Both the position numbers and the translations under genes were made by a program. A stretch of 64,000 nt of DNA, taken from assembly GCA_017470115.1 (NCBI GenBank), contig JAFUEZ010000008.1:104-64103 (forward strand), in the 5' to 3' direction. The stretch comes from Bacilli bacterium (GTDB taxonomy: Bacteria > Bacillota_I > Bacilli_A > RFN20 > CAG-826). Shown piece after piece: positions 15,541 through 29,483 of this stretch. Each line of letters begins with the position of its first letter. The stretch's first letter is position 1. The notes beneath the pieces are model-generated. The model had not been told where the DNA came from, made no database searches, and saw only the letters and a program-made list of their open reading frames with translations.

Positions 15541-15885
15541 ATGCCTAAATATTGTTCAAATTGTGGTGCAGAATTACATGAAAACGATTCATTCTGTGCA
15601 AGTTGTGGTGCAAAGATTGATAATAATCAAATATATATGGGAGATAGTAAGAAAAAAGAGGAAGGCAAGAAAACTCTAAGAACGGTTGCTTTAGTTTTTA
15701 TGATTATTAATACAGTAATTTTTGGTTTTGCACTTATTCCTTTAGCATGGATGATTCCTATGTGTATTCATGTAAATGAAAAACTTAAAACTGGTGAAGA
15801 AATAAGTATTGGCTTTAAAATTTGTACATTACTTTTCTGCAGTACGATTGCAGGAATTCTTTTACTTGTTGATGATTTAAATTAA
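15541..15885 (+). CDS. Zinc-ribbon membrane protein (114 aa)
   Basis: N-terminal CxxC-x14-CxxC (CSNCGAELHENDSFCASCGAKI) followed by two or three hydrophobic helices. RBS AAAGGAGGG. Confidence 0.6.
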   Translation: MPKYCSNCGAELHENDSFCASCGAKIDNNQIYMGDSKKKEEGKKTLRTVALVFMIINTVIFGFALIPLAWMIPMCIHVNEKLKTGEEISIGFKICTLLFCSTIAGILLLVDDLN

Positions 15886-15910
15886 TTTAAAATTTATCAA
15901 ATTTAAAGAA

Positions 15911-15936
15911 AAAAGCCTCGTTTTAGAGGCTTTTTG
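15911..15936. terminator. Bidirectional intrinsic terminator between convergent genes
   Basis: Hairpin AAGCCTC-gtttta-GAGGCTT flanked by an A-run and a T-run. Confidence 0.7.
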
Positions 15937-15951
15937 CTTTAAATTGAGAGT

Positions 15952-16656
15952 TTATTGTATTTTTGTATCGCAATAATTTTGATACGCAATAACAACATTT
16001 TTCTTTTTAGAGCGAGATATTTGAAGCTTTTCAGTATTGTTCATTATTGCGTATCCATTTTCAATTGAAGTTATGTATTTCATATTTACGTAATAGCATT
16101 TATTAATCAAAACAAAAGAAGGAGAAGCAATTTCATCCATTAACTTTTTAAGTGAAGTATAAGTTGTATATGTTTTGGTGATTGTATGAATTTGACATAG
16201 ATGAATTGATATTTCAATGAATGTAATATTTTTGATCTCTATATCAAAGACATCTTTAGAGCTCTTAATCGAAATCTTTCGATCTTCACAAAATTGCTTA
16301 TATTTAAACAATCGTTTTAATGTATCTTCGATTAAGTTATAAGGTAGAGTTATTGGAAGATAATCAAAAGCAGATACTTTATATCCTTCAATTGCATAAG
16401 TTTTTGCATCAGCTAAAAAGATAATTGGTGTTTCTAGATTCTTTTCTCTAATCTTATGAGCTAAATCAAATGCTTTTTGATCGTTGTTAACAGGAATAAA
16501 AACTATATCATCATTTTTTAGTTCATTTAGATTGGCAGGAAGTTGCTTCTTTAACTCAAAACTAAAATTAAAGGCATTTTCTTCCTGAAATTTATTAATG
16601 GAATTTTTTAATGAGTCTAAAAAATTAATGTCGTTAGTTATCAGGTAAATTCGCAT
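15952..16656 (-). CDS. LytTR-family DNA-binding regulator with aspartate-less (pseudo-)receiver domain
   Basis: The C-terminal LytTR domain and the N-terminal receiver-like domain are clearly paralogous to the response regulator at 23691-24404. The phospho-acceptor position reads FIPVNN instead of FLDIKL, and the acidic pocket reads ITND instead of VEDD. Confidence 0.7.
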   Translation of the reverse strand: MRIYLITNDINFLDSLKNSINKFQEENAFNFSFELKKQLPANLNELKNDDIVFIPVNNDQKAFDLAHKIREKNLETPIIFLADAKTYAIEGYKVSAFDYLPITLPYNLIEDTLKRLFKYKQFCEDRKISIKSSKDVFDIEIKNITFIEISIHLCQIHTITKTYTTYTSLKKLMDEIASPSFVLINKCYYVNMKYITSIENGYAIMNNTEKLQISRSKKKNVVIAYQNYCDTKIQ

Positions 16657-16700
16657 GTTTTTATTATATATATTAATTTTTCTTGAAAAATTTAAACGGA

Positions 16701-16730
16701 TTACCGATGGTGATGTGAATTTGACCGTTC
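16701..16730. promoter_or_regulatory. Candidate LytTR operator: imperfect 9-bp direct repeats TTACCGATG / TGACCGTTC separated by 12 bp
   Basis: The repeats sit in the divergent intergenic region between the orphan LytTR gene and LRR-lipoprotein/GH3 cassette 1. The 21-nt periodicity is typical of LytTR sites. A second, weaker copy (ATACCGATA-N12-TGACATTTT) lies at 16777-16806. Confidence 0.4.
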
Positions 16731-16918
16731 GTGAAAAAATAGAGATAATTATGCAAATTTAAATACAAAAGTTGCAATACCGATAATGATTTAAATTTGA
16801 CATTTTGTGATTGATTTTGATATCTCTCTTTATTTTGTAAATATAATAACGACGTTAAAGCCGCTCTTTATGAGGGCGAACGTTTTAATCGAATAATAAA
16901 AATATTAAGGAGGGAATT

Positions 16919-17647
16919 ATGAGATTAACAACACGCAGTGCACTTTTAGGTGTCGCTTTATTAATGGCTTCAGTTACAAGTTGTGGTGGTAATAACGCAG
17001 CAAAAGAAATCGATTATGCTGAAGGTTTAACACCATCAAAAGGATTAGCTTTCAAACTTAATTCAGAAATCGAAGGTGGTTTCTCATTTGGAAAATACGT
17101 TGAAGGTGAAGAAGATTATTATGTTTGTACAGGTGTTGGTACATGTGAAGATGAATATATTGTCGTTCCATCAACATATGAAGGCAAACCAGTTAAAGCA
17201 TTAGGTGATCAAGCTTTCACATCAAAATCAGCTCCAAAGATGAAAGGTATTACACTTCCAAATTCAGTTCAAGCAATTGGTTCACTTTGTTTCAGAAACT
17301 GGGATGGTTCATATGAATACATTCACGCTAACGGAATTAGAGGTTATGGTGATGGTTCAGTCACAGCTACATTAGAAGATACATTTGTCGCTTCTCAAAA
17401 AACAGTTTACATTGCAAGTATGACTTTCTTCCATGGTAAAGAAGGTGCTTCAACAAAAGTTTGGTTACCAAAGACAGTTCAAACAATCGATGCAAGTGTT
17501 TTCCTTGATACCTCATATAAGAAAGTTTTATTTGAAGGTTCAGAAGAAGATTGGAAGAAGATTACATTCTCAGCAGGTGAATTCGATGGCGAAGGCGTTG
17601 AAATCGAATATAACGTTGCTTATCCAGGAATCCAATCAAAGAAATAG
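16919..17647 (+). CDS. Leucine-rich-repeat (BspA-type) surface lipoprotein
   Basis: Lipobox VTSCGG. LRR-like segments. The C-terminal EEDWKKITFSAGEFDG tail is shared with the paralog at 24699. Confidence 0.6.
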   Translation: MRLTTRSALLGVALLMASVTSCGGNNAAKEIDYAEGLTPSKGLAFKLNSEIEGGFSFGKYVEGEEDYYVCTGVGTCEDEYIVVPSTYEGKPVKALGDQAFTSKSAPKMKGITLPNSVQAIGSLCFRNWDGSYEYIHANGIRGYGDGSVTATLEDTFVASQKTVYIASMTFFHGKEGASTKVWLPKTVQTIDASVFLDTSYKKVLFEGSEEDWKKITFSAGEFDGEGVEIEYNVAYPGIQSKK

Positions 17648-17662
17648 AAAACTAAACTTATC

Positions 17663-17696
17663 GAGCAATGAGCAGTTTTGTTCATTGCTTTTTTTA
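17663..17696 (+). terminator. Intrinsic terminator between the LRR lipoprotein gene and the GH3 gene (cassette 1)
   Basis: Hairpin GAGCAATGA-loop-TCATTGCTT followed by TTTTTTT. Confidence 0.65.
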
Positions 17697-17711
17697 TAGG
17701 AGAGATAATAA

Positions 17712-20681
17712 ATGAAGATAAAGAAAAATCTATTATTAGGTGTTACAGCTTCATTAGCTTTCTTACTTACACTCATGTCAGTTGCTTCCGCTTATTCTTT
17801 AGAATGGGAAGGAAAAATCAACGAGACTTTAGGAATTGAAGGATCATCAACTTCAGATGAAGGAGATACAGATACTCAATATTTTAAGAGTGAATTTGGT
17901 GATGGAACTATTAGTGAAGCAAATCAAGCCTTATTAGTTGCTGAAAGTAAAAAGCAATGTTATAACGAAGTCGCTGAAGGTGCAACACTTTTACGTAATC
18001 GTCATAATGCATTGCCACTTGCTCAAACAGAAAGAAAGATTTCTATATTTGGTAATAATGCTACTAATTTTGTCTATTTACCAAGTGGCGGCGGCGAAGG
18101 AAATAGTGTTAGTGCTGATAATAGTGCAAATTTTAAAGCATGTTTTGATGAAGCCGGTTTCCAAGTTAATCCAACGCTTTGGAATGCTTATGTAAATAGT
18201 GGAGTTAAACGTGCTTATAGTGGAACAAATGCTAGCGAAGATGATATTGGTGAAGTACCTTTAAGTTTCTATACAGATCAAATCAAGTCTTCTTTTGATG
18301 AATATAGTGATGCAGCTATTATTGTCATCACTCGTGAATCAGGTGAAGGTGCTGATATGTTCATGAATTATAGAGATGGAAAGAGCAAATTAGCACTTAC
18401 AGATAATGAACGTGACATGATTAATATGGTCACAAGTAGTGGAAAATTTAGCAAAACCATCGTATTAATTAATACAACTAATCAACTTGAACTTGATTGG
18501 GTAGAAGAATATAATATCGATTCAGTTTTGTGGGTTGGCTCAGTTGGTCAATGGGGTGCTTTAGCTATACCTGATTTATTAACAGGTAAAGTAAATCCTA
18601 GCGGAAGAACTGTTGATACATGGGCTGCAAATTCACTTTCTGCTCCAGCATGTGTTAACGCAGGAACAAATACTCCTCAATATTTAAATGTTGATGAAAT
18701 TGGACAATCTATTAAAGATTCAGTTAATACATATGCTTATATGCAAACACAAGTTGAATCAATTTATGTTGGATATAGATATTATGAAACACGTTATGAA
18801 GATGTCATCTTAAATCAAGGTAATGCAAATTCAACTAAAGGTGCAATTCAAGGCTCAACAAATTGGGATTATGCAAAAGAAATGTGTTATCCATTTGGAC
18901 ATGGTTTAAGTTATTCAACATTTTCAGAAACTCTTGAAAGCGTGACTGAAGATAGTGAAACAGATACTTTAAAAGTAACTGTTAAAGTTAAAAATACAGG
19001 AACTACAGCAGGAAAGCACTCAGTCTTAGTTTATGCACAAACTCCTTATGGTACATATGAAAAAGAACATAAGGTTGAAAAGAGCGCTATTCAACTTGTT
19101 CAATATGGAAAAACTAAACTTTTAGAGCCAAATGAAGAAGAAACTCTTGAACTTAAAGTAGATAAATATTTACTTGCATCTTATGACCAATATGAAGCAA
19201 AAACTTATATTAGATCAGCTGGAAATTATTATTTAGCTCTTGGAAATAATATTCATGATGCACTAAATAATATTTTAGCCAAAAAAGGTGCCTCTAATTT
19301 AGTTGATGAAGAAGCAAATCCAGTTACAGGAGATACTTCCCTAGTTTATGAATGGGCTGAAACATTTGATAAAGAAAAATATAGTGTCACTGATTATACA
19401 GGTGCAAAAGTAACAAATGTATTTGAAGAATGTGATTTAAATCATTTCTTTGATACTCCTGTTGTTACATATTTATCAAGATCTGATTGGGACGCTACTT
19501 ATCCTGTTAGTCAAACTAGAGTTGCAGCTACAACAGAAATGATTCGTCTTTTAAAAGGTGACTTATATAAAACACCTGCTGATGCTCCTAAATTCACTGA
19601 TTTAAAGATTGGTGTAAATAAAGGCATCAAAATGATTCAACTTAAAGATAAAGAATATGATGATCCTATGCGGGAAGAATACTTAGCTCAATATTCTCTT
19701 GATGATCTTGCTGCAATTACAGCAGAAGCATCAGGTACAAAACCAATTGCTGATTTCGGCGTTCCACATTTAGGATTCGTTGATGGACCAATGGGTGTTT
19801 GTTCAAAAATGCAATTTGGTTCAGTTAAATGTACAACTTTCCCATCAGTTCCAATTTTAACAGCTGCTTATAATAAAGATTTGCTTAAAAGACGTGGTGA
19901 ACTCATGGGTGAAGAAGCAGTGTTTGCTAAAAAACATGTAGTTAATGGCCCTGGATGTAATTTACATAGAACTCCATTCAATGGAAGAACATGTATTTAT
20001 TATTCAGAAGATGCTAACTTAACATATTTAGCTGTTGAAGCTGAAAATGCTGGTATGTTATCAAAAGGAGTAACAACAGCTGTTAAACACTTTGTTGGAA
20101 ATGATCAAGAATTCATGAGAACTGGTGTTTCAGTATTCTTTGAAGAACAAGGTATGAGAGAAATTGCTATGAGAGCATTTGAATCATCCTTAAATTCAAC
20201 TGATAACACTTTAGGAAGTATGATGTCCTTTAATAGACTTGGTTGTGTTTCTGATAATAACGCAAGTTATGCAAAAAAATTAACCAGAAACGAATGGGGC
20301 TTCCATGGTTTCTATCAAACTGATGCTGCTCAACATTATTCAAGTTATTTTGTTACTGAACTTGATTCAGGTACAGATATTTTCTCAACTGATACAACAG
20401 GTCGTGGTGGAGTAGCTATAGCAAAATATATTAAAGATAATAACGATGGTTATCTTTATAATGAATTAAAAGAAACAGTTCATCATATTCATTATATGAT
20501 GTGTAAAGGTCATGCAATGAATGGCTTATCATCAACTGCAAAAATCGTTATTTCAACTCCATGGTGGCAAGTTGCTGAACTTTCAGTGATTATTGCTCTT
20601 GGTGTATTAACACTTGGTGGCGCTGCTCTTTTAGCTTTAAATGAATTCAAAGCTATTAAAGGTGCAAAAGTAGAAGGATAA
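17712..20681 (+). CDS. Glycoside hydrolase family 3 beta-glucosidase-like enzyme with circularly permuted domain order and C-terminal transmembrane anchor (989 aa)
   Basis: Signal peptide. The GH3 C-domain start ATLLRNRHNALPL and FGHGLSYSTF lie near residue 395. KHFVGNDQEF and the GFHGFYQTDAA nucleophile region lie near residues 790-850. The C-terminus is hydrophobic: IIALGVLTLGGAALLAL. Confidence 0.8.
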   Translation: MKIKKNLLLGVTASLAFLLTLMSVASAYSLEWEGKINETLGIEGSSTSDEGDTDTQYFKSEFGDGTISEANQALLVAESKKQCYNEVAEGATLLRNRHNALPLAQTERKISIFGNNATNFVYLPSGGGEGNSVSADNSANFKACFDEAGFQVNPTLWNAYVNSGVKRAYSGTNASEDDIGEVPLSFYTDQIKSSFDEYSDAAIIVITRESGEGADMFMNYRDGKSKLALTDNERDMINMVTSSGKFSKTIVLINTTNQLELDWVEEYNIDSVLWVGSVGQWGALAIPDLLTGKVNPSGRTVDTWAANSLSAPACVNAGTNTPQYLNVDEIGQSIKDSVNTYAYMQTQVESIYVGYRYYETRYEDVILNQGNANSTKGAIQGSTNWDYAKEMCYPFGHGLSYSTFSETLESVTEDSETDTLKVTVKVKNTGTTAGKHSVLVYAQTPYGTYEKEHKVEKSAIQLVQYGKTKLLEPNEEETLELKVDKYLLASYDQYEAKTYIRSAGNYYLALGNNIHDALNNILAKKGASNLVDEEANPVTGDTSLVYEWAETFDKEKYSVTDYTGAKVTNVFEECDLNHFFDTPVVTYLSRSDWDATYPVSQTRVAATTEMIRLLKGDLYKTPADAPKFTDLKIGVNKGIKMIQLKDKEYDDPMREEYLAQYSLDDLAAITAEASGTKPIADFGVPHLGFVDGPMGVCSKMQFGSVKCTTFPSVPILTAAYNKDLLKRRGELMGEEAVFAKKHVVNGPGCNLHRTPFNGRTCIYYSEDANLTYLAVEAENAGMLSKGVTTAVKHFVGNDQEFMRTGVSVFFEEQGMREIAMRAFESSLNSTDNTLGSMMSFNRLGCVSDNNASYAKKLTRNEWGFHGFYQTDAAQHYSSYFVTELDSGTDIFSTDTTGRGGVAIAKYIKDNNDGYLYNELKETVHHIHYMMCKGHAMNGLSSTAKIVISTPWWQVAELSVIIALGVLTLGGAALLALNEFKAIKGAKVEG

Positions 20682-20693
20682 GGAGGAAAAATT

Positions 20694-21119
20694 ATGAAAT
20701 TTAATGAAGTTTTTAAAGCTCACAAATTTGCTTTAATTTTCCAAGGTGTTTCTTTCTTACTTGGCTTAGTTGCCTTTCTATATACAGCAAATGTTTTAAA
20801 TTTGATGAAGCTTGTTCCTGAACAATATACTCCATCATTTATATTCATTATTGTTACTTTACTCTTGCAAGTTGGCTATGTAGTAATGTTAATTAAAAAC
20901 ATTAAATTTGCTGAATACTTAAAATTTTTAATCGTTATTTTTGGAGCACTTGGCTTATCTTATTTTGTAACAGGATCAATGCTTTCAATTATTGATAAAA
21001 TCTATAATATCGTCATGTGGGGTGATATTACTCAATTCCCAGCAATTATGGTTTTTGGAGCATTTTTACTTGCTGCAGAAGGATTAAATATTGCTACCTG
21101 CTTCTTAAAAAACGAGTAA
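20694..21119 (+). CDS. Small four-helix membrane protein co-encoded with GH3 (141 aa)
   Basis: Four hydrophobic helices. RBS AAGGAGG. Same relative position as the 28409 gene in the paralogous cassette. Confidence 0.55.
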   Translation: MKFNEVFKAHKFALIFQGVSFLLGLVAFLYTANVLNLMKLVPEQYTPSFIFIIVTLLLQVGYVVMLIKNIKFAEYLKFLIVIFGALGLSYFVTGSMLSIIDKIYNIVMWGDITQFPAIMVFGAFLLAAEGLNIATCFLKNE

Positions 21120-21140
21120 GATTTGTTTTTTAATCCCTCA

Positions 21141-21173
21141 AAAACCTGAGTTTCCGGACTCAGGTTTTTTCTT
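21141..21173 (+). terminator. Intrinsic terminator
   Basis: AAAACCTGAGT-ttccgg-ACTCAGGTTTT hairpin followed by a T-run. Confidence 0.8.
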
Positions 21174-21278
21174 TAAAAAAATGTTAATTATGCCACTAAA
21201 TAAGCATAAAATGTATTTATTTTTATAAAAATAGAACTTTTATAAACACAAAATCTATTATTTAAACGAGGTAAGTTT

Positions 21279-22418
21279 ATGAAGATCAAAAATATAATTT
21301 TTAGTTTACTAGCTATTTTTAGTTTAGTAAGTTGTGCAGATAAAGTAGAACCAATCATAGAAGGATATAGATATCCTGATGATGGACTTCCAAAAGAGAT
21401 TGATCCAGAAACTATAGTTTTAAAAGAAGGTTGCACACATACAAAACTTCAAATGGCTTATTTAGAGTCAACTTATAAATCGATTGAAAAATACGCTAAT
21501 GGGCAAAAAGAAAATTCAATTCCTAATCCAATAAAGATTGATTATTCATCTTTGAATTTATCAAGCGTAGATAACTATAAAATTGAATTTTCTACATCAG
21601 CAACATTTGAAAATTCATATGTAGATAATTTATATGATTTAAAAACTTATGATTTTTATAACGGATTAACTGATACAAAATATTATTGGCAAATTAAGGA
21701 TAATGAAGGCAATATTTTAGATTTAAAAGGAGACTTTAAAACATGTGAGCATCTTCCTAGAATGTTAAAAGTTGAAGGTGTCACCAACGTAAGAGATTTA
21801 GGCGGATATAAAACTAAAGATAATAAGAAAATAAAACAAGGGCTCCTTTATAGAGGTGGAAGATTAAATGATTCTTATACTTATGAGCCAAAACTTGGAA
21901 TCAGTGAAAAAGGAATTGAAGTTTTAACTAAACAACTTGGAGTAAAGTCTGAACTCGATTTAAGAAGACTTGAAGAAGATGATAAAAATGCTCAAGAAGC
22001 AGGGCATAGAAACGAAATTCAAATACCAGGAATTTCTCTTAAATCAGTGTCTTTAGATTATTCAATTAAAAGTGAATTACAAAAAGAATTATTTGTTGAA
22101 ATATTTGACTATTTAGCAGATGAAAATAATTATCCATTATATTTCCATTGCAATATCGGAACCGATAGAACAGGGTTGATCGCTTTTTGGCTTTTAAATT
22201 TAGTTGGAGTAGAAGAAACAACAATTTATAAAGAATATTGTATGAGTGCATTAGCTAATATTGGTCAACCAAGAACTCATAAGAGTTTACAAAAAGAGTG
22301 GCTTGCTCTTTATGAATATGATCATGAAGATTTTACTAAAGCCACTGAACTATATTTAAAAGATTTAGGAATAAAAGAAGAAACTTTAAGTAAAATAAAA
22401 TCAATTATTCTTGAGTAG
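21279..22418 (+). CDS. Lipoprotein with protein-tyrosine-phosphatase-like CX5R active site
   Basis: Lipobox LVSCAD. FHCNIGTDRTGLIAF matches the HCxxGxxR(T/S) P-loop of PTP/dual-specificity/PTP-like phytase enzymes. RBS GAGGT. Confidence 0.6.
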   Translation: MKIKNIIFSLLAIFSLVSCADKVEPIIEGYRYPDDGLPKEIDPETIVLKEGCTHTKLQMAYLESTYKSIEKYANGQKENSIPNPIKIDYSSLNLSSVDNYKIEFSTSATFENSYVDNLYDLKTYDFYNGLTDTKYYWQIKDNEGNILDLKGDFKTCEHLPRMLKVEGVTNVRDLGGYKTKDNKKIKQGLLYRGGRLNDSYTYEPKLGISEKGIEVLTKQLGVKSELDLRRLEEDDKNAQEAGHRNEIQIPGISLKSVSLDYSIKSELQKELFVEIFDYLADENNYPLYFHCNIGTDRTGLIAFWLLNLVGVEETTIYKEYCMSALANIGQPRTHKSLQKEWLALYEYDHEDFTKATELYLKDLGIKEETLSKIKSIILE

Positions 22419-23694
22419 AAGAAGTTTCATCTTTTAAAGGAAGCATAATTGTTGCTTGAAATACATTTTGTTTTTGAGAAAGAAGCAATTCTCCATCATA
22501 TTTTTCAAGTGTCTTTTTGACGTTTCTTATGCCAAAACCATGATTGTATTTATCTTTCTTAGTCGTTTTAGGCAAGTCGTTTTTAAATTCAATTTGATGG
22601 TCTAAATAATTTTCAATCAAGATAAAAACAATATTCTTTTCTTTTTTAGAGTGAATTGTGATGTAGCGCTTATCTTGAGGAACTAGTTTTTGTGATTCGA
22701 TTGCATTATCAAGTAAATTTCCAAAAATAATATAAATATCAATAGAATCCATGAATGATAAGTCACTTAAATTTGAAGAAATGATGAATTTAATTTTGTA
22801 ATTTTCACAAACAACACTTTTTTCAGATAGAATTGAATCAATAACTGAATTACCAGTATAGATTAATTTTTCAAAATCTACTGTACCTTCTTTTAAGGTT
22901 GCAGCAATCTTTTTTCTTTCTTCATTATCGCCATTTTCAATTGCGTTTACGTAATACTTTAAATCGTGCATTCTTCTATCAATAGCATCAAATGATGCTA
23001 ATAAGAATTCATATTGTTCGTTTTGCTTCACAATAGAAGCTTCATACATTTTTTGAGAAACATAAGTTTTATTTGTATAGATATTAATAAATAGAAGTGT
23101 CAAACAAAGTAAAGTATCGTAAATGATTTCAATTAATGCATAACTTCTATCAAAAGAAAGGAATATTACAGCTAATAAACCAGCTACAGCAAATAAAACA
23201 ACAAAATAAGACTTATAACTAATTTCATCTAAGCTTGAATTTGATAATTTTAAAATCATAGTTATTATGAATATTTGTAAGGCTAAAATAGCATAATCAA
23301 CAAGTTTACCAATATAATAAATCCAATCAAACGAAAGAGCTTCGTTTAATCCTGTTTCTTCAAATAAAATCATTCTTAAATTGTAGCCAATATGTTGAAG
23401 TAAAGCAGAAGTAAGAACGATAATAATCGTTGTTTTTAGATTTGTATTATAGCTAAATAAAATGACTCCAACAACAAGAGAGTATAAAAGAAATACTTGT
23501 GGAGAAAATTTAAAAACAGCTAATTCAACTCTTTGTGGAATAAAATATATGATTGCCATTCCTGCAATTAAAGGAAGGAAAAATCTTAATAAAAAATATT
23601 TCTTTCTAGATGTTTTTCTTAAAAGAAATACTGAAGGAATTACATAAGTTGCCGTTAAAGAGATTAACGAAATTAACGATTTTACAGGTGTCAT
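22405..23694 (-). CDS. Membrane sensor histidine kinase, AgrC/ComD-like (HPK10, GHKL ATPase domain)
   Basis: About six N-terminal transmembrane helices. H-box RRMHDLKYYVNAI. N-box GNLLDNAIES. G-box HGFGIRNV. The start overlaps the stop of the response regulator gene. Confidence 0.8.
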   Translation of the reverse strand: MTPVKSLISLISLTATYVIPSVFLLRKTSRKKYFLLRFFLPLIAGMAIIYFIPQRVELAVFKFSPQVFLLYSLVVGVILFSYNTNLKTTIIIVLTSALLQHIGYNLRMILFEETGLNEALSFDWIYYIGKLVDYAILALQIFIITMILKLSNSSLDEISYKSYFVVLFAVAGLLAVIFLSFDRSYALIEIIYDTLLCLTLLFINIYTNKTYVSQKMYEASIVKQNEQYEFLLASFDAIDRRMHDLKYYVNAIENGDNEERKKIAATLKEGTVDFEKLIYTGNSVIDSILSEKSVVCENYKIKFIISSNLSDLSFMDSIDIYIIFGNLLDNAIESQKLVPQDKRYITIHSKKEKNIVFILIENYLDHQIEFKNDLPKTTKKDKYNHGFGIRNVKKTLEKYDGELLLSQKQNVFQATIMLPLKDETSSTQE

Positions 23695-24404
23695 TCTCTA
23701 AACCCATTCCATGAAGCAACTTGAATGTAGAAGCTCTTTTTAAAAGATCTTCCTAAAGGAAAAGATGTATCATCATCTAAAATGATTGATTTGCCTGACC
23801 ATGATTTTAAATATGCGATATTAATTAGTGTAGACCCATTAACTTTTGCAAAACCTTGAGAGAGATAATTTGCTTCAAGTTGTTTAAGAGGGATTTGTTT
23901 TTTATATTCATTTCCATCATTAGTTTTTAAGTAGCAATAATGGCCAGAAGATTCTATATAAACAACATCTTTAAGAGCAATTGAAATATTATTGCTATCT
24001 TGTTTAACAGCTATTTTAATTGAATTATTTCTTGAACGTTTTTCAATTATGAAATCGAGTTTACGTTTGAGTACTTTAGGATCGTATGGCTTTAAAACAA
24101 ATGCAGAAGCACCAATTTCATATCCATCAATTGCATATTTTTCTAAAGCAGTGATTAAAATAATATCTGTATCAGTGTTTATAGTCCTAAATTTTTTAGC
24201 AATGGAAATTCCATTTTCAAAAGGAAGTTTAATGTCTAAAAAAACAATATCGAAATTCATATATGACTTTTCTAAAAATAGTAAGCCATCTTCAAATTTA
24301 GAAATATTGATCTTTTGTTTGATATCTTTTTGATATTCAAGTAAAAAATTCTTTAAATCATTTAAGAAATTCTTATCATCTTCGACTATAGCTATGTTAA
24401 TCAT
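23691..24404 (-). CDS. Response regulator, LytTR family (AgrA/ComE-like)
   Basis: Receiver domain with IVEDD and the phospho-acceptor in FLDIKLP. C-terminal LytTR DNA-binding domain. Lies upstream of the histidine kinase in the same operon. Confidence 0.85.
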   Translation of the reverse strand: MINIAIVEDDKNFLNDLKNFLLEYQKDIKQKINISKFEDGLLFLEKSYMNFDIVFLDIKLPFENGISIAKKFRTINTDTDIILITALEKYAIDGYEIGASAFVLKPYDPKVLKRKLDFIIEKRSRNNSIKIAVKQDSNNISIALKDVVYIESSGHYCYLKTNDGNEYKKQIPLKQLEANYLSQGFAKVNGSTLINIAYLKSWSGKSIILDDDTSFPLGRSFKKSFYIQVASWNGFRE

Positions 24405-24465
24405 ATTTATATATTAATAATATTAATATCAACTCGCAAAAATCTATAAAAAATTTATTCATATT

Positions 24466-24495
24466 TTGCATGTTTTAAGCAAAAAATTGCATTTA
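24466..24495. promoter_or_regulatory. Candidate LytTR operator: 9-bp direct repeats TTGCATGTT / TTGCATTTA separated by 12 bp
   Basis: The repeats are in the divergent intergenic region between the response regulator gene and cassette 2, about 60-90 nt upstream of the response regulator start. Confidence 0.4.
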
Positions 24496-24698
24496 TGTAG
24501 ATCTAAAAAAAGAAAAATATCGATTGTTATCGAATCTCTATTTTTAAGGATATACAAATAATGCATGTATTTAAATAAGTTGCTCAGTTTTAATAAAAAA
24601 TCAGCAATAAATCTTTTAAAGTTCATAAAATGAAGCCATAAATACTAAAAATGACCATAATTAGCGTTTTTAGACAATAAAAATTTTGGAGGGAATTT

Positions 24699-25271
24699 AT
24701 GAAATTAAAATTTTTATTAAGTGCAGGTGTTCTTTTGGCATCAGTTGCAGCTTTAGCTTCATGTGGTGGCACAAAGGATAATCACGTTGCTGGATCAGAA
24801 GGTTTAGTTTATACCTTATCAGATGATGAAGATCATTACATTTTCACAAGTATCGGAACATGCACAGATGCGACAGTCACTGTTGGAAACTGGTACAATA
24901 ATCTTCCTGTTACTGAATTTGGTGAAGCTCCTTTAGGTGATGGAACAACATTAAAGAAATTAATCGTTTCTGAAGGTATCACAAAATTAGCTTTCAGAGC
25001 ATGCAGAAGTTTCTCAGTTGAAAACGTTGTTCTTCCAAACGGAATCGCAGAATTACCAATGGGTACATTTGTCCGTTGTGATAAATTAACCGAAATCACA
25101 TTAGGAACAGGTTTAACAAAATTTAATGAAGGTGGTGCTTTAGCATCAACAGCAATTAAAAAGATTAACTTCCGTGGTACAGAAGAAGAATGGAAGAAAA
25201 TCGAAATCACAAACGAAGGCGATATTGCAATTATTGCAGCAGCTCAAGTCGTTTATAATTTTAAAGGTTAA
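24699..25271 (+). CDS. Leucine-rich-repeat (BspA-type) surface lipoprotein (paralog)
   Basis: Lipobox LASCGG. LRR segments. C-terminal EEEWKKIEITNEG tail. The RBS/5' region GGAGGGAATTtATG is nearly identical to that of the 16919 gene. Confidence 0.6.
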   Translation: MKLKFLLSAGVLLASVAALASCGGTKDNHVAGSEGLVYTLSDDEDHYIFTSIGTCTDATVTVGNWYNNLPVTEFGEAPLGDGTTLKKLIVSEGITKLAFRACRSFSVENVVLPNGIAELPMGTFVRCDKLTEITLGTGLTKFNEGGALASTAIKKINFRGTEEEWKKIEITNEGDIAIIAAAQVVYNFKG

Positions 25272-25284
25272 TCTAAAATTGTTT

Positions 25285-25326
25285 CGGCCCTTAGTTCGTC
25301 TAAGGGCCTCTTTATATTTAAAGAGG
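25285..25326 (+). promoter_or_regulatory. Structured leader: terminator hairpin overlapping an SD-sequestering hairpin upstream of the GH3 gene (cassette 2)
   Basis: The first hairpin, GGCCCTTAG-ttcgtc-CTAAGGGCC plus a T-rich tract, shares its last two nt with a second hairpin, CCTCTTTA-tatt-TAAAGAGG. The second hairpin contains the GAGG of the ribosome-binding site. Confidence 0.5.
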
Positions 25327-25333
25327 GCAAATT

Positions 25334-28300
25334 ATGAAAAATAACTTAATGAGAGGACTATTTGCTACCAGCCTTTTTGTTCTTGCGTTTTCACTTGTTG
25401 GCAATTTGTCTACTAATGCATATAGACAAGACGTAAATAGATTCTTAGGAACATCAAATTATAAAATCACTATTGATGGTGAAGTTAGTGGTGGCGATAT
25501 AGATAGTTTATATCCTTATAAATCCGATTATTCTTCAACGAAAGAATTAGTTCAAGCTTTCGCTGATGTTGGAGAAAGAATGGGTGAAGAAGGTACAGTT
25601 TTACTTAAAAATGAAAATAATTGTTTACCTTTAGATGCAAATCACAAGAAAGTAACCTTACTTGGTACAATTGCATATAATCCTTATCAAGGTGGACAAA
25701 TGGGATCTGGTTACCAAAAAAATGTTGGTACAGATGCCGATACAGTTTCTTTTGTTAACGCGTTAAAAGAAAGAGGTTTTGAAGTCAATAAAGATGTTCA
25801 AACAGTTTTTAAAGGCGGAAATCAACATGCTGCTCCAGCAGCTTCCTTGCAAGCACAATTTCAAAATAAAGAATTAAGCGTAAGTGAACTTGATAGTCGT
25901 AGCGCAAATTGGAAAGATTCATTTGCTAATTACAACACAGCAATTGTTGTTTTTGGCCGTAATGGTGGTGAAAATGCTTCATATTTACCTGGGCTTGATG
26001 GGGTAAGCGAAGCTGATAAAGCATTACATCAAAGTGATCCATTAGGATTAAACGATAATGAAAGAGATATTTTAAAAGTTGCTACAGACGCTAAAAAAGC
26101 AGGTAAATTTGATAAAGTCATCGTCATTTTAAACACTTCATCAACAATGGAAATTAAAGAAATTAAAGAAAATGAAGATGTTGATGCAATGATGATGGTT
26201 GGTGTACCTGGTGGATATGGCTTTAGAGGTGTTGTTGATGTCATGATGGGTGCTGATAATTTATCACCTTCTGGACATTTAACTGACACATTTGTAACAA
26301 AGAACTCACTTTCTCCAGCAGCTCAAAACTATTCATTATACAAATTTACAAATTACGATGAAATTAATGCTCAAGGCAGCGAATATGCTGGAAAATTAAT
26401 TAACTCATATTTAGTCGAGGCTGAAGGCATTTATACAGGCTATTATTACTATGAAACTAGATATGAAGATGCAGTTAGAAATAGAAATAATGCAGATTCA
26501 GTAAAAGGGTCAGTTAGTGGAGCTTGGAAATATGAAAACGAAGTTGTTTATCCATTTGGTTATGGGTTAAGTTATACAACATTTGAGCAAAAGCTTGATA
26601 GTGTTGAAGTTGATTTAGCTGCTAAAAAAGTTAGAGCTTCAATTACTGTTAAAAATACTGGATCATATTCAGGAAAGAGCGTTGCAGAATTATATGTTCA
26701 TGCACCTTATATCGATGGTGGATTAGAAAAAGCATCAATTAGACTTATTGATTTTGGAAAAACCAAATTACTTGCTCCAAATGAATCAGAAGTAGTCAAT
26801 TTAGAAGCTGATTTACAAGATGTAGCTACTTGGGATAGTAGTTGTGATAATGGAGATGGAACAAAAGGAAGCTACGTACTTGATGCAGGTAAATATTATT
26901 TTGCATTAGGAAATGGTGCTCATGAAGCTTTAAATAATGTTTTAGTTGCAGATGGAGTTGATTCTAGTTTATTAACTGGCTCATTTACTCCAAATTGTGT
27001 CCAATCTTATGTAGTTGACGCAAAAGATACAACATCTTTAAGAGAATCATTTAGTGGAACAAAACTAGAAAATCAACTTGAAGATGCAGATTTAAATTAT
27101 TATCAACCTGGAACAGTTACTGAACTTTCTAGATCAAATTGGGACCTTACTTTCCCTAAAACTTACGATAATATTGCAGCTGATGCAGAAATGTTAAAAG
27201 TTTTAAAAGGCGATATTACTGATATTAGTGTTGATGATGGCTGGCCAGAAGTTAAATGGGATCAAAAGAACGGACTTACACTTTTAGATTTAAAAGATGT
27301 ACCTTTTGAAGATCCTAGATGGGGTCAACTCATTGAGCAACTTTCATTTGATGAAGCACTTAAATTAGTTGCTTTTGGTGGAGTTGTTACTCAAGCAGTT
27401 GATTCGATTGGTTCGCCACAATTGCTTCAAAACGATGGTCCTAATGGCATCAATAATAACGCTTTAGGACATAATGTTGATGCATTTTCAACAATGCATG
27501 ATATAGATCCATATTATTTTGATAGTTCAGATAAGAATTTCTTATATAAAGGTGGATGTATGGCACTTGGTGTTACAATTGCTCAAACATTTAATAAAGA
27601 ATTATCTTATGAACAAGGAAAAATTTATGGTAACTACGCTATTTGGGCGCATGTTCCAATTCATTGGAGTTGTGGATTAAATACACATAGATCACCATAT
27701 AATGCAAGAAATCACGAATATTACTCTGAAGATGGAGTTTTAGGCGGATATCTTGGTGCAAATATGATTAGAGGTGGAAGAGAAAAGGGATTTATTATTT
27801 CTCCAAAACACTACGCATTTAATGATACTGAACTTAATAGAAGTGGTGTTGCTCCATTTATGAGTGAACAAAAAGCAAGACAAATCGAATTAAGAAGCTT
27901 CCAAATTGCTATTGAAAAAGGTGAAGCTCTTGGAATTATGACTTCAATGTCAAGAATTGGAGCAACTCCAATTAATGCTCATGAAGGAGTCATGTATAAC
28001 GTTTTAAGAAAAGAATGGGGCTTCCATGGATTAAACAGTACAGATGCTGCATCAAATAAATATTATTTCTCAGCAAAAGAATGTGCTATTAACTGTGTCA
28101 CCATGACTACACAAAACAAAGTAGATTATTCAAATGGTTGGGAATATTTCCATCCTGAGAACTTATCAAAAGCTAAAAAATTACAAGCAAGACTTCAAGA
28201 AGGTATGAAATGTCAATATTATGCAGCTGTTCATTCAAATGCTATCAATGGTTATAGTAAAAATATGAAAGTTGAAAAGATAATGACTTGGTATGATATG

Positions 28301-28393
28301 GCATTTATTGGAATTGATATTGGAGCTGGTTTAGCAGCTTTAGCAGCAGGATTCTTCTTTGTTAAAGGCGTGCTTGCCAAAAAAGAAGGTTAA
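25334..28393 (+). CDS. Glycoside hydrolase family 3, domain-permuted, C-terminal membrane anchor (1019 aa; paralog of 17712 gene)
   Basis: Signal peptide. TVLLKNENNCLPL and FGYGLSYTTF in the N-terminal half. KHYAFND and GFHGLNSTDAAS in the C-terminal half. Hydrophobic C-terminus IGIDIGAGLAALAAGFFFV. Confidence 0.8.
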   Translation: MKNNLMRGLFATSLFVLAFSLVGNLSTNAYRQDVNRFLGTSNYKITIDGEVSGGDIDSLYPYKSDYSSTKELVQAFADVGERMGEEGTVLLKNENNCLPLDANHKKVTLLGTIAYNPYQGGQMGSGYQKNVGTDADTVSFVNALKERGFEVNKDVQTVFKGGNQHAAPAASLQAQFQNKELSVSELDSRSANWKDSFANYNTAIVVFGRNGGENASYLPGLDGVSEADKALHQSDPLGLNDNERDILKVATDAKKAGKFDKVIVILNTSSTMEIKEIKENEDVDAMMMVGVPGGYGFRGVVDVMMGADNLSPSGHLTDTFVTKNSLSPAAQNYSLYKFTNYDEINAQGSEYAGKLINSYLVEAEGIYTGYYYYETRYEDAVRNRNNADSVKGSVSGAWKYENEVVYPFGYGLSYTTFEQKLDSVEVDLAAKKVRASITVKNTGSYSGKSVAELYVHAPYIDGGLEKASIRLIDFGKTKLLAPNESEVVNLEADLQDVATWDSSCDNGDGTKGSYVLDAGKYYFALGNGAHEALNNVLVADGVDSSLLTGSFTPNCVQSYVVDAKDTTSLRESFSGTKLENQLEDADLNYYQPGTVTELSRSNWDLTFPKTYDNIAADAEMLKVLKGDITDISVDDGWPEVKWDQKNGLTLLDLKDVPFEDPRWGQLIEQLSFDEALKLVAFGGVVTQAVDSIGSPQLLQNDGPNGINNNALGHNVDAFSTMHDIDPYYFDSSDKNFLYKGGCMALGVTIAQTFNKELSYEQGKIYGNYAIWAHVPIHWSCGLNTHRSPYNARNHEYYSEDGVLGGYLGANMIRGGREKGFIISPKHYAFNDTELNRSGVAPFMSEQKARQIELRSFQIAIEKGEALGIMTSMSRIGATPINAHEGVMYNVLRKEWGFHGLNSTDAASNKYYFSAKECAINCVTMTTQNKVDYSNGWEYFHPENLSKAKKLQARLQEGMKCQYYAAVHSNAINGYSKNMKVEKIMTWYDMAFIGIDIGAGLAALAAGFFFVKGVLAKKEG

Positions 28394-28408
28394 GAGGAGG
28401 TAAAAGTT

Positions 28409-28867
28409 ATGAAAAAATTATTAGCTAGTCTTAACGTTCAAACTTGTTTGTTATTATCAACTTTTGTTTTCACTTTGGTCGCTCTTGTTTCTTATATTAT
28501 TAATATAAGCACAGAGTATTTCCAAGCGTATGCACCTTCAGGAGCTTATTTTGCCTTTTTAATCTTAAGTCTTGTTTTTGCAGCAGGATTTATCGTATTA
28601 AAAATATTAAAAGAAAATAAGATCTTCAAAATTGCTGAAAATGTTATTCTTGCAGTTTTACCAGGCTTATTAATGGCAGCTGTTATGTTTCTTTTCCTTG
28701 ATAGAATCTATTATGTTTTAGTTATCTTTACTTATGAAAAGAATGAGACAAATATGGCCGCTCTTATGCCAGCTTTAGTTTCGTTTGCTGCTGCAGCTTT
28801 AGCGTCCATTATTGCTTTAGCAAGTTCATTTATGAAGGATAAAGAAATAGGACAAGTTAAAGAATAA
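28409..28867 (+). CDS. Small polytopic membrane protein co-encoded with GH3 (152 aa)
   Basis: Four hydrophobic helices. RBS AGAGGAGG. Positional counterpart of the 20694 gene. Confidence 0.55.
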   Translation: MKKLLASLNVQTCLLLSTFVFTLVALVSYIINISTEYFQAYAPSGAYFAFLILSLVFAAGFIVLKILKENKIFKIAENVILAVLPGLLMAAVMFLFLDRIYYVLVIFTYEKNETNMAALMPALVSFAAAALASIIALASSFMKDKEIGQVKE

Positions 28868-28894
28868 CGAATTATTGAACAAAAAATTTCACTA

Positions 28895-28921
28895 AAAACC
28901 CTGTTTTTGCAGGGTTTTTTC
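28895..28921 (+). terminator. Intrinsic terminator
   Basis: AAAACCCTG-tttttg-CAGGGTTTT followed by a T-run. Confidence 0.8.
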
Positions 28922-28955
28922 TTGAAATAATATATTTTTCGTTCATAATGATTAT

Positions 28956-29471
28956 ATGGATAAATTTTATAGATTAGCAAAATTAGAAGATATTGATGAA
29001 ATAATGAAGGCTGTTGAAGACTCTCGAGAAATCTTAAGGCTACAAGGAAATGGCCAATGACAATTTGGTTATCCTAATAAGGAAGATTTTCTTAATGATA
29101 TTAAAAATGAGAATCTATATGTCGTGTTAGATAAAAACGATGAGACTAAAATCGCAGGAGTTTGTGCTTTAACATACTATGAAGAAGATTATCATCATCT
29201 TTATGAAGGAGCTTGGTTAACTGATTTAGATTATATGGTGATGCATAGAGTTGCTCTTAAAAAAGAATACGCTCATCAAGGGTATGGCGATTTGATTTTC
29301 AAGTCATTTATCGATGTAGCCAAGTCTAAAGGATATCTTTCCTTGCGTATTGATACGCATGAAGGCAACCAAATAATGAGGCATTTAATTATTAAAAATG
29401 GTTTTAAATACTGTGGAAGAGTGATTTTGCCACCAAATAAAGACAGAATGGTATTTGAAAAAGTGATTTAA
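28956..29471 (+). pseudogene. GNAT-family N-acetyltransferase disrupted by an in-frame TGA at a conserved Trp position
   Basis: Translation from the ATG at 28956 gives MDKFYRLAKLEDIDEIMKAVEDSREILRLQGNGQ, then TGA at 29058-29060, then QFGYPNKEDF... in the same frame. The frame continues into the 29124-29471 ORF, which has the GNAT acetyl-CoA motifs QGYGDLIF. The expected reading is GQWQFGYP. Confidence 0.6.
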
Positions 29472-29483
29472 TATATATTAGGT

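What the first reader, a model, noticed from the sequence alone, without database searches (positions are those of the whole stretch)
15952..28867. Duplicated surface-glycosidase cassette, each divergently paired with a LytTR regulator
Two paralogous units occupy 16919-21119 and 24699-28867. Each has the form LRR lipoprotein, intrinsic terminator, permuted GH3, small polytopic membrane protein. Each unit is divergently transcribed from a LytTR-family regulator gene. The first is the aspartate-less orphan at 15952-16656, with a 262-bp shared promoter region. The second is the canonical response regulator plus histidine kinase at 22405-24404, with a 294-bp shared region. A CX5R phosphatase lipoprotein sits between the two units. 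The symmetry suggests one duplicated regulatory-enzymatic module in which a quorum-sensing-type LytTR switch controls a cell-surface glycan-processing or adhesion apparatus. This is not a described system type and is the best candidate for an undescribed functional system in this window.
Basis: partly seen in the sequence, partly recalled or inferred. Interest (0 to 1): 0.72.

Follow-up and report, generated by a model that had tools for sequence, protein, structure and literature searches.

The report
LytTR-controlled membrane-anchored GH3 glycosidase modules
The window holds two old, diverged copies of a widespread but functionally untested gene module in which a LytTR-type two-component regulator sits next to a membrane-anchored sugar-cleaving enzyme and a small, unannotated membrane protein; the enzyme-regulator pairing was noted once in 2010 and nobody has shown how it works.

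Summary

The two cassettes are not a recent duplication. The GH3s are 30% identical, and each is closer to enzymes in other taxa. They belong to two old subfamilies of one module: LytTR response regulator, HPK10-type kinase, LRR_5 protein in some lineages, hairpin, C-terminally anchored permuted GH3, and a 4-TM protein from a family with no Pfam match.

The four closest orthologues of cassette 1 carry all five genes co-directionally, in unrelated flanks. Across 48 species-level loci, 24 of 31 with an anchored GH3 hold a LytTR regulator plus kinase, against 1 of 17 with unanchored GH3s only (p = 1.7e-6).

LytTR-style direct repeats with a 21-nt period lie upstream of the enzyme operon in the window and in most relatives. 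This points to direct transcriptional control.

No quorum-sensing peptide genes were found. The phosphatase is not part of the module, and the divergent gene order is local to this genome. Kelly et al. (2010) already noted the LytTR-anchored GH3 pairing in Butyrivibrio, and the permuted GH3 subfamily is known (GlyA1).

Apparently not reported before: the 4-TM family, the conserved hairpin, the operators and the link to the anchor. Signal and mechanism remain inferred.

The parts
15952..16656 (-). Orphan LytTR regulator with a degenerate (pseudo-)receiver domain and no adjacent kinase
   Evidence: Pfam finds LytTR only. It aligns full-length with canonical response regulators, but has Pro at the phospho-Asp position and has lost the conserved Lys. 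It has no close orthologue: 23-27% identity to every module RR.
16702..16810 (.). Candidate operators in the 262-bp divergent region. A 33-nt unit occurs twice (16702-16734 and 16778-16810). The first copy contains ACCGATGGT-N12-ACCGTTCGT (21-nt period). A TGCAA-N16-TGCAA pair lies at 16752-16777.
   Evidence: The ACCG[AT]T half-site recurs in L013, L071 and L084. Binding is inferred, not shown.
16919..17647 (+). Small LRR_5 (BspA-type) lipoprotein 1
   Evidence: LRR_5 at 31 bits. VTSC lipobox read from the sequence. 70% identical to the genes at the same position in L088 and L089.
17663..17690 (+). Hairpin followed by a U-run between the LRR gene and GH3-1 (internal terminator or attenuator)
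   Evidence: z -3.7. A strong hairpin sits at this position in all 6 loci examined.
17712..20681 (+). GH3-1: secreted, permuted GH3 exo-beta-glycosidase with a signal peptide and one C-terminal TM helix (residues 953-979)
   Evidence: D871 and E212 align with the TnBgl3B catalytic motifs and are invariant across 15 family members.
20694..21119 (+). sTM1: 141-aa 4-TM protein from a family with no Pfam match, starting 13 nt after the GH3-1 stop
   Evidence: Orthologues (41-49% identity) sit directly after GH3-1 orthologues.
21279..22418 (+). Y_phosphatase3 lipoprotein (CX5R). A local insertion between the cassettes, not part of the conserved module.
   Evidence: The jackhmmer search of 87 loci finds it only in this genome's own contigs.
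22405..23694 (-). HPK10-type histidine kinase: 6-7 TM helices, no extracytoplasmic domain, HATPase_c_5 core
   Evidence: H-, N- and G-boxes are conserved while the TM half is hypervariable across 43 module kinases.
23691..24404 (-). Canonical LytTR response regulator (receiver with the phospho-Asp present)
24466..24495 (.). Candidate operator TTGCATGTT-N12-TTGCATTTA (21-nt period). It lies 62-91 nt upstream of the RR start and 204-233 nt upstream of the LRR2 start.
   Evidence: A near-identical TTGCAT-N15-TTGCAT site lies 62 nt upstream of the RR in L022. Binding is inferred.
24699..25271 (+). Small LRR_5 lipoprotein 2
   Evidence: LRR_5 at 30.1 bits. LASC lipobox. 31% identical to a 205-aa protein in the L005 module.
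25286..25308 (+). Hairpin or terminator between the LRR2 gene and GH3-2
   Evidence: z -4.2.
25334..28393 (+). GH3-2: second permuted GH3, C-terminally anchored (TM helix at residues 989-1010)
   Evidence: Nearest relatives are L027 (Butyrivibrio sp.) at 47% and L052 at 46%.
28409..28867 (+). sTM2: 152-aa 4-TM protein with conserved motifs in the predicted outward-facing loops, starting 16 nt after the GH3-2 stop
   Evidence: AF2 model with pLDDT 88 and pTM 0.84. In 12 of 12 metagenomic clusters the homologue sits directly after a C-anchored GH3.

Best explanation
Each cassette is one copy of a self-contained module for a regulated cell-surface exo-glycosidase.

Shown by sequence:
- The GH3 is exported by a signal peptide and held at the outer face of the membrane by a single C-terminal TM helix.
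- Both catalytic residues are present, so it is most likely an active exo-beta-glucosidase or -xylosidase-type enzyme of the permuted GlyA1 subfamily.
- A 4-TM protein gene follows it tightly.

Inferred:
- The 4-TM protein is a membrane partner of the enzyme.
- The neighbouring LytTR response regulator, phosphorylated by the HPK10-type kinase, binds a 9/10-bp direct repeat with a 21-nt period upstream of the LRR-GH3-sTM operon and switches it on.
- The hairpin after the LRR gene lets more lipoprotein than enzyme be made.
- The kinase has no extracytoplasmic domain, so the cue must be read within or at the membrane. The cue is probably linked to the glycoside substrate or its product.
- In cassette 1 of this genome the cognate kinase and regulator have been replaced by a phosphorylation-independent LytTR regulator. 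A TGCA-N17-TGCA site shared by both promoter regions suggests that the cassette-2 regulator also acts on cassette 1.
For: Conserved module:
- The cassette-1 orthologues at 70, 65, 56 and 53% GH3 identity all read RR(LytTR), HK(HATPase_c_5), LRR, GH3, sTM on one strand. Pfam LRR_5 hits are on record for three of the four; the fourth (L090) was recognised by BLASTP only, 32% to LRR1. The surroundings are unrelated: recombinase, toxin-antitoxin and Abi genes.
- More distant members (46% and 41%) keep RR, HK, GH3 and sTM.

Specific link to the anchor:
- In the species-level genome scan, using loci with at least 5 kb on each side, 24 of 31 loci with a C-anchored GH3 hold LytTR plus kinase. Only 1 of 17 loci with unanchored permuted GH3s does (Fisher p = 1.7e-6).
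- Linked loci come from Clostridia, Bacilli, Erysipelotrichaceae, Acholeplasmataceae, Actinomycetota and Hallerella.

Operators:
- A 21-nt spacing gives the best or tied-best 10-mer direct repeat, among spacings 12-32, in 6 of 6 promoter regions of the window and its orthologues.
- The same holds in 12 of 16 independent kinase-to-GH3 spacers from other taxa. The weighted count is 7.2 against about 0.8 expected.
- Examples: L088 TTCGTGTTG-N12-TTCGTGTTG, L019 a 10/10 match, L071 ACCGTTCACG/ACCGTTCGCG.
- This is the 9-12-9 architecture shown experimentally for LytTR regulators (PMC6193735).

Hairpin: present in 6 of 6 LRR-to-GH3 spacers, z -3.1 to -6.1.

Enzyme: permuted order, homology to the GlyA1 structure 5K6L (E 3e-52) and to TnBgl3B, with D871 and E212 invariant.

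GH3-sTM coupling: 12 of 12 sTM2-family clusters lie directly after a C-anchored GH3, with start and stop often overlapping.

Shared TGCA-N17-TGCA pair: only 4 sites in 64 kb, and 2 of them fall in the two promoter regions.
Against: - No expression, binding or enzyme data exist for any member. All regulatory steps are inferred from position and motif.
- The sTM2-type GH3-sTM pair often occurs with no LytTR regulator or kinase within 8 kb. One example is L135, a locus recovered from many gut metagenome assemblies, where the pair sits in a GH78-GH2-GH3-sTM-MFS_2-LRR_5 locus. The regulator is therefore not obligatory.
- Only about a fifth of anchored GH3s in the genome scan have an sTM gene.
- The orphan regulator cannot be phosphorylated, so how cassette 1 is controlled here is unclear.
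- Individual direct-repeat matches are modest (shuffle p 0.003-0.13 per region). The strength of the evidence comes from recurrence.
- Substrate specificity cannot be read from the sequence. NCBIfam hits to arabinopyranosidase, glucosidase and xylosidase models are all far below their cutoffs.
Confidence: 0.6

Rival explanations
1. Enzyme-coupled sensing. The anchored GH3, its 4-TM partner and perhaps the LRR lipoprotein are the extracellular input device of the kinase. Substrate binding or turnover by the enzyme is relayed through the TM helices to the kinase, which has no sensor domain of its own. The cassette would then be both sensor and output. This extends the best explanation rather than excluding it.
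For: - The association is with the membrane anchor, not with GH3 as such: 24 of 31 against 1 of 17 loci.
- The kinase has 6-7 TM helices and no extracytoplasmic domain.
- The kinase TM half is hypervariable with no conserved polar residues. This fits lineage-specific protein contacts better than one shared ligand pocket.
- The conserved sTM motifs lie in the two loops predicted to face outward, where the GH3 ectodomain would be.
- A TPWW motif next to the GH3 TM helix is conserved.
Against: - No contact is shown.
- GH3 tails from regulator-linked and unlinked loci show no distinguishing motif.
- Most regulator-linked GH3s lack an sTM gene.
- A secreted enzyme may simply need tighter induction than a cytoplasmic one, which would also explain the link to the anchor.
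- Hypervariable TM sensors are equally typical of peptide-sensing HPK10 kinases.
Confidence: 0.25
2. Quorum-sensing control. An Agr/Com-like peptide pheromone activates the HPK10 kinase and the enzyme cassette is a density-dependent output.
For: HATPase_c_5 kinases with polytopic, hypervariable sensors paired with LytTR regulators are the classic peptide-pheromone architecture, as in AgrCA and ComDE (established knowledge).
Against: - No AgrB-, AgrD- or ComC-like gene and no C39-peptidase ABC exporter is present in the region or travels with the module in any of the loci examined.
- The five-gene unit moves between unrelated contexts without such genes.
- Recurrent pairing with one enzyme architecture across phyla points to a cue specific to the enzyme.
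Confidence: 0.08
3. Adjacency without regulation. The LytTR systems control something else and sit next to anchored GH3 genes through shared mobility or chance.
For: Some anchored GH3-sTM loci lack any LytTR system within 8-10 kb. The flanks of several modules carry mobile-element genes.
Against: - Association odds ratio about 55, p = 1.7e-6.
- The kinase gene usually ends 50-300 nt before the GH3 or LRR gene on the same strand.
- LytTR-type repeats with a 21-nt period are enriched in exactly that spacer.
Confidence: 0.07

Closest known systems
LytTR regulators next to secreted GH3 enzymes with a C-terminal TM helix in Butyrivibrio proteoclasticus B316 (PUL7, 21, 33; Kelly et al. 2010, PMC2914790)
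   Same: Same pairing of a LytTR response regulator with a secreted, C-terminally anchored GH3. Butyrivibrio loci are among the relatives found here (L027, L040).
   Different: The 2010 note is one sentence of genome description. It does not mention the HPK10 kinase class, the 4-TM partner, the LRR protein, the hairpin, the operators, the link to the anchor or the spread across phyla. No function was tested.
GlyA1-type GH3 beta-glycosidases with permuted domain topology (PDB 5K6L, PMC5104943; BrGH3A, PMC11233000)
   Same: Same domain order, with the (alpha/beta)6 sandwich and Fn3-like domain before the (alpha/beta)8 barrel. Clear sequence homology (E 3e-52). Gut and rumen Firmicutes origin.
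   Different: The papers on the characterised enzymes mention no signal peptide or membrane anchor. The window enzymes have a signal peptide, a C-terminal TM helix, a dedicated 4-TM neighbour and a two-component system.
AgrCA / ComDE / VirSR-type HPK10-LytTR two-component systems
   Same: Kinase with a polytopic sensor and HATPase_c_5 core. Regulator with receiver plus LytTR domain. Direct-repeat operators with a spacing of about 21 bp.
   Different: No pheromone precursor or processing genes. The output is a glycosidase operon rather than toxins, bacteriocins or competence genes.
LytTR Regulatory Systems (HdrRM / BrsRM of Streptococcus mutans, PMC6193735)
   Same: A LytTR regulator that works without phosphorylation, small polytopic membrane proteins, and 9-12-9 direct repeats.
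   Different: LRS regulators lack a receiver domain and are co-transcribed with their membrane inhibitor. The window orphan keeps a degenerate receiver and is followed by a terminator, not a membrane-protein gene.
Accessory-protein-dependent, intramembrane-sensing kinases (BceS with BceAB, LiaS with LiaF; from general knowledge)
   Same: A kinase without an extracellular sensor domain, encoded beside membrane proteins that could supply the stimulus.
   Different: This is only an analogy for the co-sensor reading. The kinase family, the output domain and the partner (an enzyme) are all different, and no interaction is shown.

Membership tests
GH3, permuted (GlyA1-like) subfamily | Domain order: GH3 C-terminal sandwich, then Fn3-like, then GH3 N-terminal barrel | tested here: met
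   Pfam coordinates: 92-401, 438-512 and 685-873 in GH3-1; 88-414, 450-527 and 748-911 in GH3-2.
GH3, permuted (GlyA1-like) subfamily | Sequence homology to the solved permuted enzymes | tested here: met
   5k6l_A at E 2.9e-52 and 5wug_A at E 1.1e-58. In both chains the barrel domain lies in the C-terminal half.
GH3, permuted (GlyA1-like) subfamily | Catalytic Asp nucleophile and Glu acid/base present | tested here: met
   D871 (in WGFHGFYQTD) aligns with the TnBgl3B GFVMSDW motif, and E212 (in SGEGAD) aligns with its SGEGYDR motif. Both are invariant in 15 members, including GH3-2.
GH3, permuted (GlyA1-like) subfamily | Exo-beta-glycosidase activity and substrate range | not testable with these tools
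   All NCBIfam equivalog models score far below their cutoffs.
HPK10-LytTR two-component system | Regulator with a phosphorylatable receiver plus a LytTR domain | tested here: met
   Met for 23691-24404. Not met for the orphan 15952-16656, which has Pro at the Asp position.
HPK10-LytTR two-component system | Kinase with a polytopic N-terminal sensor, an H-box His and a HATPase_c_5 core | tested here: met
   HATPase_c_5 at E 3.9e-27. 6-7 TM helices. H-, N- and G-boxes conserved.
Peptide quorum-sensing system (Agr/Com type) | Pheromone precursor plus a processing or export gene (AgrB/AgrD, or ComC with a C39 ABC exporter) linked to the kinase and regulator | tested here: not met
   None found among the ten genes or in the annotated module loci. 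Very small unannotated peptide ORFs cannot be fully excluded.
LytTR Regulatory System (LRS) | LytTR regulator without a receiver domain, co-transcribed with a membrane inhibitor | tested here: not met
   The orphan keeps a full-length degenerate receiver. A bidirectional terminator at 15910-15935 follows its gene, and the next gene is convergent.
LytTR operator architecture | Two 9-10-bp direct repeats separated by 11-13 bp, upstream of the promoter | tested here: met
   The 21-nt period is best or tied best in 6 of 6 and 12 of 16 spacers. Protein binding was not tested.
BspA-type LRR_5 surface lipoprotein | LRR_5 repeats and a lipobox | tested here: met
   31.0 and 30.1 bits against a cutoff of 27.7, a marginal pass. 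VTSC and LASC lipoboxes.
Gram-positive polysaccharide utilisation locus (gpPUL) | Glycoside hydrolase, carbohydrate transporter and regulator in one locus | tested here: inconclusive
   The conserved five-gene unit has enzyme and regulator but no transporter. A separate LacI-linked ABC sugar operon lies upstream in the window, and some relatives carry an MFS_2 gene after sTM.

The most novel reading that the evidence does not exclude
A surface glycoside hydrolase acts as the ligand-recognising half of a two-component sensor. The C-terminally anchored GH3, with its 4-TM partner and in some lineages an LRR lipoprotein, reports substrate binding or turnover through the membrane to an HPK10 kinase that has no sensor domain of its own. 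This would be an enzyme-coupled carbohydrate sensor spread across Firmicutes, Actinomycetota and Fibrobacterota.
Probability: 0.25. Interest if true: 0.8.

Novelty: new variant of a known kind. Interest (0 to 1): 0.55.

Why it matters
How Gram-positive gut and rumen bacteria sense complex glycans is much less well understood than the Bacteroidetes Sus-like systems.

This module is very common.

It uses a regulator class normally linked to peptide signalling. It is tied specifically to a membrane-anchored enzyme.

If the kinase reads the enzyme or its product, this would be a new route for sugar sensing. It would also give a compact, portable, inducible surface-enzyme cassette. Even on the conservative reading, the 4-TM family and the operator and hairpin layout are concrete, testable additions to a pairing that has gone unexplored since 2010.

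Tried and rejected
- **Close relatives of cassette 2.** A metagenome scan with GH3-2 alone found nothing. The allowed second scan used the sTM2 alignment instead.
- **sTM1 homologues.** The word-indexed search returned only the protein itself. Exhaustive phmmer found 21 hits. One of them (P0241, 3832 aa) is a repetitive, unrelated protein and was discarded.
- **sTM2 fold.** The AF2 model is confident, but Foldseek against the PDB gave no hit with E <= 0.001, only generic 4-helix membrane bundles. The afdb50 library was not available.
- **GH3 tail motif.** I compared C-terminal tails of regulator-linked and unlinked anchored GH3s and found no distinguishing motif.
- **Kinase ligand pocket.** I looked for conserved residues in the kinase TM domain that might mark a shared pocket and found none.
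- **TGCA-N17-TGCA as a general operator.** It occurs upstream of only 3 of 46 LytTR genes. It is therefore specific to this genome and L022, while the 21-nt periodicity is the general feature.
- **Rfam.** A scan of 15000-29500 found nothing near any gathering score.
- **Phosphatase.** Rejected as a module component.
- **NagZ-like or cell-wall role for the GH3.** Rejected. All best matches are beta-glucosidase or xylosidase-type enzymes, and the KHF..NDQE motif, read from the translation, fits that type from general knowledge.
- **Literature.** Eight full-text searches found no functional study of the pairing.
Full report
**What is in the window**

The source is a roughly 30% G+C metagenome-assembled genome labelled 'Bacilli bacterium'.

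- 15952-16656(-): a LytTR protein with no Response_reg hit.
- 16919-17647 and 24699-25271: two small LRR_5 lipoproteins.
- 17712-20681 and 25334-28393: two proteins of about 1000 aa whose Pfam order is GH3_C, Fn3-like, GH3_N, which is the permuted order.
- 20694-21119 and 28409-28867: two proteins of 141 and 152 aa with no Pfam hit and four predicted TM helices.
- 21279-22418: a Y_phosphatase3 lipoprotein with HCNIGTDR.
- 22405-23694(-): a HATPase_c_5 kinase with 6-7 TM helices.
- 23691-24404(-): a receiver plus LytTR regulator.

Hairpins with U-runs lie at 17663-17690 and 25286-25308. Both GH3s have an N-terminal signal sequence and one C-terminal TM helix. This gives an exported ectodomain tethered by its tail.

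The orphan regulator aligns full-length with canonical regulators. It has Pro where the phospho-acceptor Asp should be and lacks the conserved Lys.

**The 'duplication' is old**

- The GH3s are 30% identical, the LRR proteins 29% and the regulators 26%.
- The small membrane proteins are related only at profile level (BLASTP E 0.006; hhalign 97% probability, E 9e-11 over the full length).
- GH3-1 is 70, 65, 56 and 53% identical to orthologues in other metagenomes, and 41-47% identical to Clostridia enzymes.
- GH3-2 is 46-47% identical to a Butyrivibrio enzyme and a Eubacteriales enzyme.
- Each GH3 carries its own subtype of 4-TM partner. sTM1 orthologues are 41-49% identical and sTM2 orthologues 24-30%.

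The window therefore holds members of two ancient subfamilies of one module. It is not a recent tandem copy.

**The synteny is conserved, in a different order from the window**

The four closest orthologues of cassette 1 (L088, L089, L003, L090) all read RR(LytTR), HK(HATPase_c_5), LRR, GH3, 4-TM protein on one strand. Their flanks share nothing and include recombinase, toxin-antitoxin and Abi genes. Pfam LRR_5 hits are on record for three of these LRR genes. The L090 gene was recognised only by BLASTP similarity to LRR1 (32%).

More distant members in Clostridia keep RR, HK, GH3 and 4-TM protein. The divergent arrangement in the window, and the kinase-less Asp-less regulator at cassette 1, are local departures.

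The phosphatase gene is found only in this genome's own contigs. It is not part of the module.

**The link is to the membrane anchor**

A scan of one genome per species with a GH3 alignment returned 80 loci. I called ORFs, detected LytTR and kinase homologues by iterative HMM search, and predicted TM helices.

I then restricted the set to loci with at least 5 kb on both sides. Of 31 loci with a C-terminally anchored GH3, 24 contain both a LytTR regulator and an HPK10-type kinase. Of 17 loci with only unanchored permuted GH3s, 1 does (Fisher p = 1.7e-6).

Linked loci come from Oscillospiraceae, Lachnospiraceae, Christensenellaceae, Bacilli, Erysipelotrichaceae, Acholeplasmataceae, Coriobacteriia, Bifidobacteriaceae, Microbacterium and Hallerella.

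**Operators**

LytTR regulators bind two 9-bp direct repeats separated by about 12 bp, just upstream of the promoter (shown experimentally in PMC6193735).

- I tested spacings of 12-32 nt in the two window promoter regions and in the kinase-to-LRR spacers of the four orthologues. A 21-nt period gives the best or tied-best 10-mer repeat in 6 of 6.
- Examples: L088 TTCGTGTTG-N12-TTCGTGTTG; window ACCGATGGT-N12-ACCGTTCGT at 16703; window TTGCATGTT-N12-TTGCATTTA at 24466.
- In 16 further kinase-to-GH3 spacers from other taxa, 21 nt is best or tied best in 12. The weighted count is 7.2 against about 0.8 expected.
- An ACCG[AT]T half-site recurs in L013, L071, L084 and window region 1.
- Both window promoter regions also share a TGCAW-N16-TGCAW pair, at 16752-16777 and 24467-24492. 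Only four such sites exist in the 64 kb.
- L022 has the same site 62 nt upstream of its regulator gene.

I take this as good in-silico evidence that the regulator acts directly on the enzyme operon. It also hints that the cassette-2 regulator reaches cassette 1. Binding itself is not shown.

**Hairpin**

A strong stem-loop sits between the LRR gene and the GH3 gene in all six loci examined (z -3.1 to -6.1; none of 200 shuffles folds as well). The sequences are unrelated, and most are followed by a U-run. The position is conserved while the sequence is not. This fits a partial terminator or a stabilising 3' end that uncouples lipoprotein and enzyme levels. That role is inferred.

**The enzyme**

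- The best solved relatives are beta-glucosidases. They include the permuted GlyA1 (5K6L, E 3e-52) and 5WUG.
- D871 and E212 align with the nucleophile and acid/base motifs of TnBgl3B. Both are invariant in 15 family members, including GH3-2.
- The permuted subfamily is already described (PMC5104943, PMC11233000).
- Specificity cannot be assigned, because all NCBIfam equivalog hits are far below cutoff.
- The upstream part of the window is a LacI-linked ABC sugar operon with a ribokinase, a nucleoside hydrolase and a GH43-like gene. This fits a carbohydrate-scavenging setting.

**The 4-TM partner**

- A profile search found at least 259 homologues, none with a Pfam domain and all named 'hypothetical'.
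- The sTM2 subtype has conserved motifs (Y..N..T.YF and SRI.G.A.IMTF.NNA.NM.D) in the two loops predicted to face outward, and a C-terminal FF.VKK.
- The AF2 model is confident (pLDDT 88, pTM 0.84). It is a plain four-helix membrane bundle with no significant PDB neighbour.
- Searching from the sTM side gave 80 metagenomic loci in 12 clusters at 80% identity. Every cluster has the gene directly after a C-anchored permuted GH3, 7 have an LRR_5 protein nearby, and about 5 have a LytTR regulator, a kinase or both within 8 kb.
- The largest cluster (63 of the 80 loci, many from human gut assemblies) has GH78-GH2-GH3-sTM-MFS_2-LRR_5-MBOAT-LRR_5-GH43 and no two-component system within 8 kb.

The tightest pair is therefore GH3 plus sTM. 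The two-component system and the LRR protein are frequent partners but not obligatory.

**Mechanism and rivals**

The best-supported reading is a two-component-controlled surface exo-glycosidase unit, as set out under 'best explanation' (confidence 0.6).

The kinase has no extracytoplasmic domain, and its TM half is hypervariable. Together with the link to the anchor, this keeps open the more novel reading that the enzyme and its membrane partner feed the signal to the kinase (0.25). I found no discriminating motif in GH3 tails, and I could not run a complex prediction.

Quorum sensing has no support beyond the regulator and kinase family, because no peptide or processing genes travel with the module. 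Mere adjacency is made unlikely by the statistics and by the operators.

**Comparison with the literature**

Kelly et al. [quoted passage not shown] Sheridan et al. 2016 list a LytTR regulator plus kinase in one Roseburia locus.

Eight full-text searches found no functional follow-up. The pairing is therefore known as an annotation remark. The module anatomy, its breadth, its dependence on the anchor, the operators, the hairpin and the 4-TM family appear to be undescribed. The library does not cover most subscription journals, so this negative result is not absolute.

**Verdict**

This is a real, conserved and widespread module.

Novelty: a new variant of a known kind, namely a two-component-regulated glycosidase locus. 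Interest: 0.55.

Noticed in passing
L002:12983-13144 (same species, different sample); corresponds to window 20694-21119: In a second assembly of the same species, the sTM1 gene is cut to 53 aa and the distance to the phosphatase gene is 41 nt shorter. This is a strain-level deletion or frameshift in the 4-TM partner.
   Followed up: no
L029, L033, L036, L040, L041, L049, L050, L055, L056 (after GH3 genes of about 810 aa); L005:14468-15097 and L007:12213-12827 (beside GH2 genes: after the GH2 in L005, before it in L007): A different small 4-TM protein of 164-250 aa is encoded beside unanchored conventional GH3 and GH2 genes. Most carry the motif GGGGGLAYFLAVQ..INFF.QR.ITFKS, and two have a faint Pfam GtrA_DPMS_TM signal. 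This is a second recurrent pairing of a glycosidase with a small membrane protein.
   Followed up: partly
window 7584-10115, 11283-12551, 12574-13278, 14149-15390: Four proteins in the upstream LacI/ABC sugar operon have no Pfam hit: 843 aa, 422 aa, a 234-aa polytopic membrane protein, and a 413-aa lipoprotein. They sit among a nucleoside hydrolase, a GH43-like gene and a ribokinase.
   Followed up: no
window 15910-15935: A perfect bidirectional terminator hairpin lies between the convergent zinc-ribbon membrane protein gene (15541-15885) and the orphan LytTR gene.
   Followed up: no
L014, L018, L058, L064, L037, L024 (GH3 ORFs of about 1380-2060 aa): Several GH3s linked to two-component systems are much longer than the window's. 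Five of the six end in a C-terminal TM helix (not L024), and four of those have a CGS- or GCGS-like motif just before it. These look like extra surface domains.
   Followed up: no
L135:8392-9861: In the sTM2-family locus recovered from many gut metagenome assemblies, an MFS_2 (GPH-type) sugar transporter gene directly follows sTM. This hints that the enzyme's products are taken up locally.
   Followed up: partly
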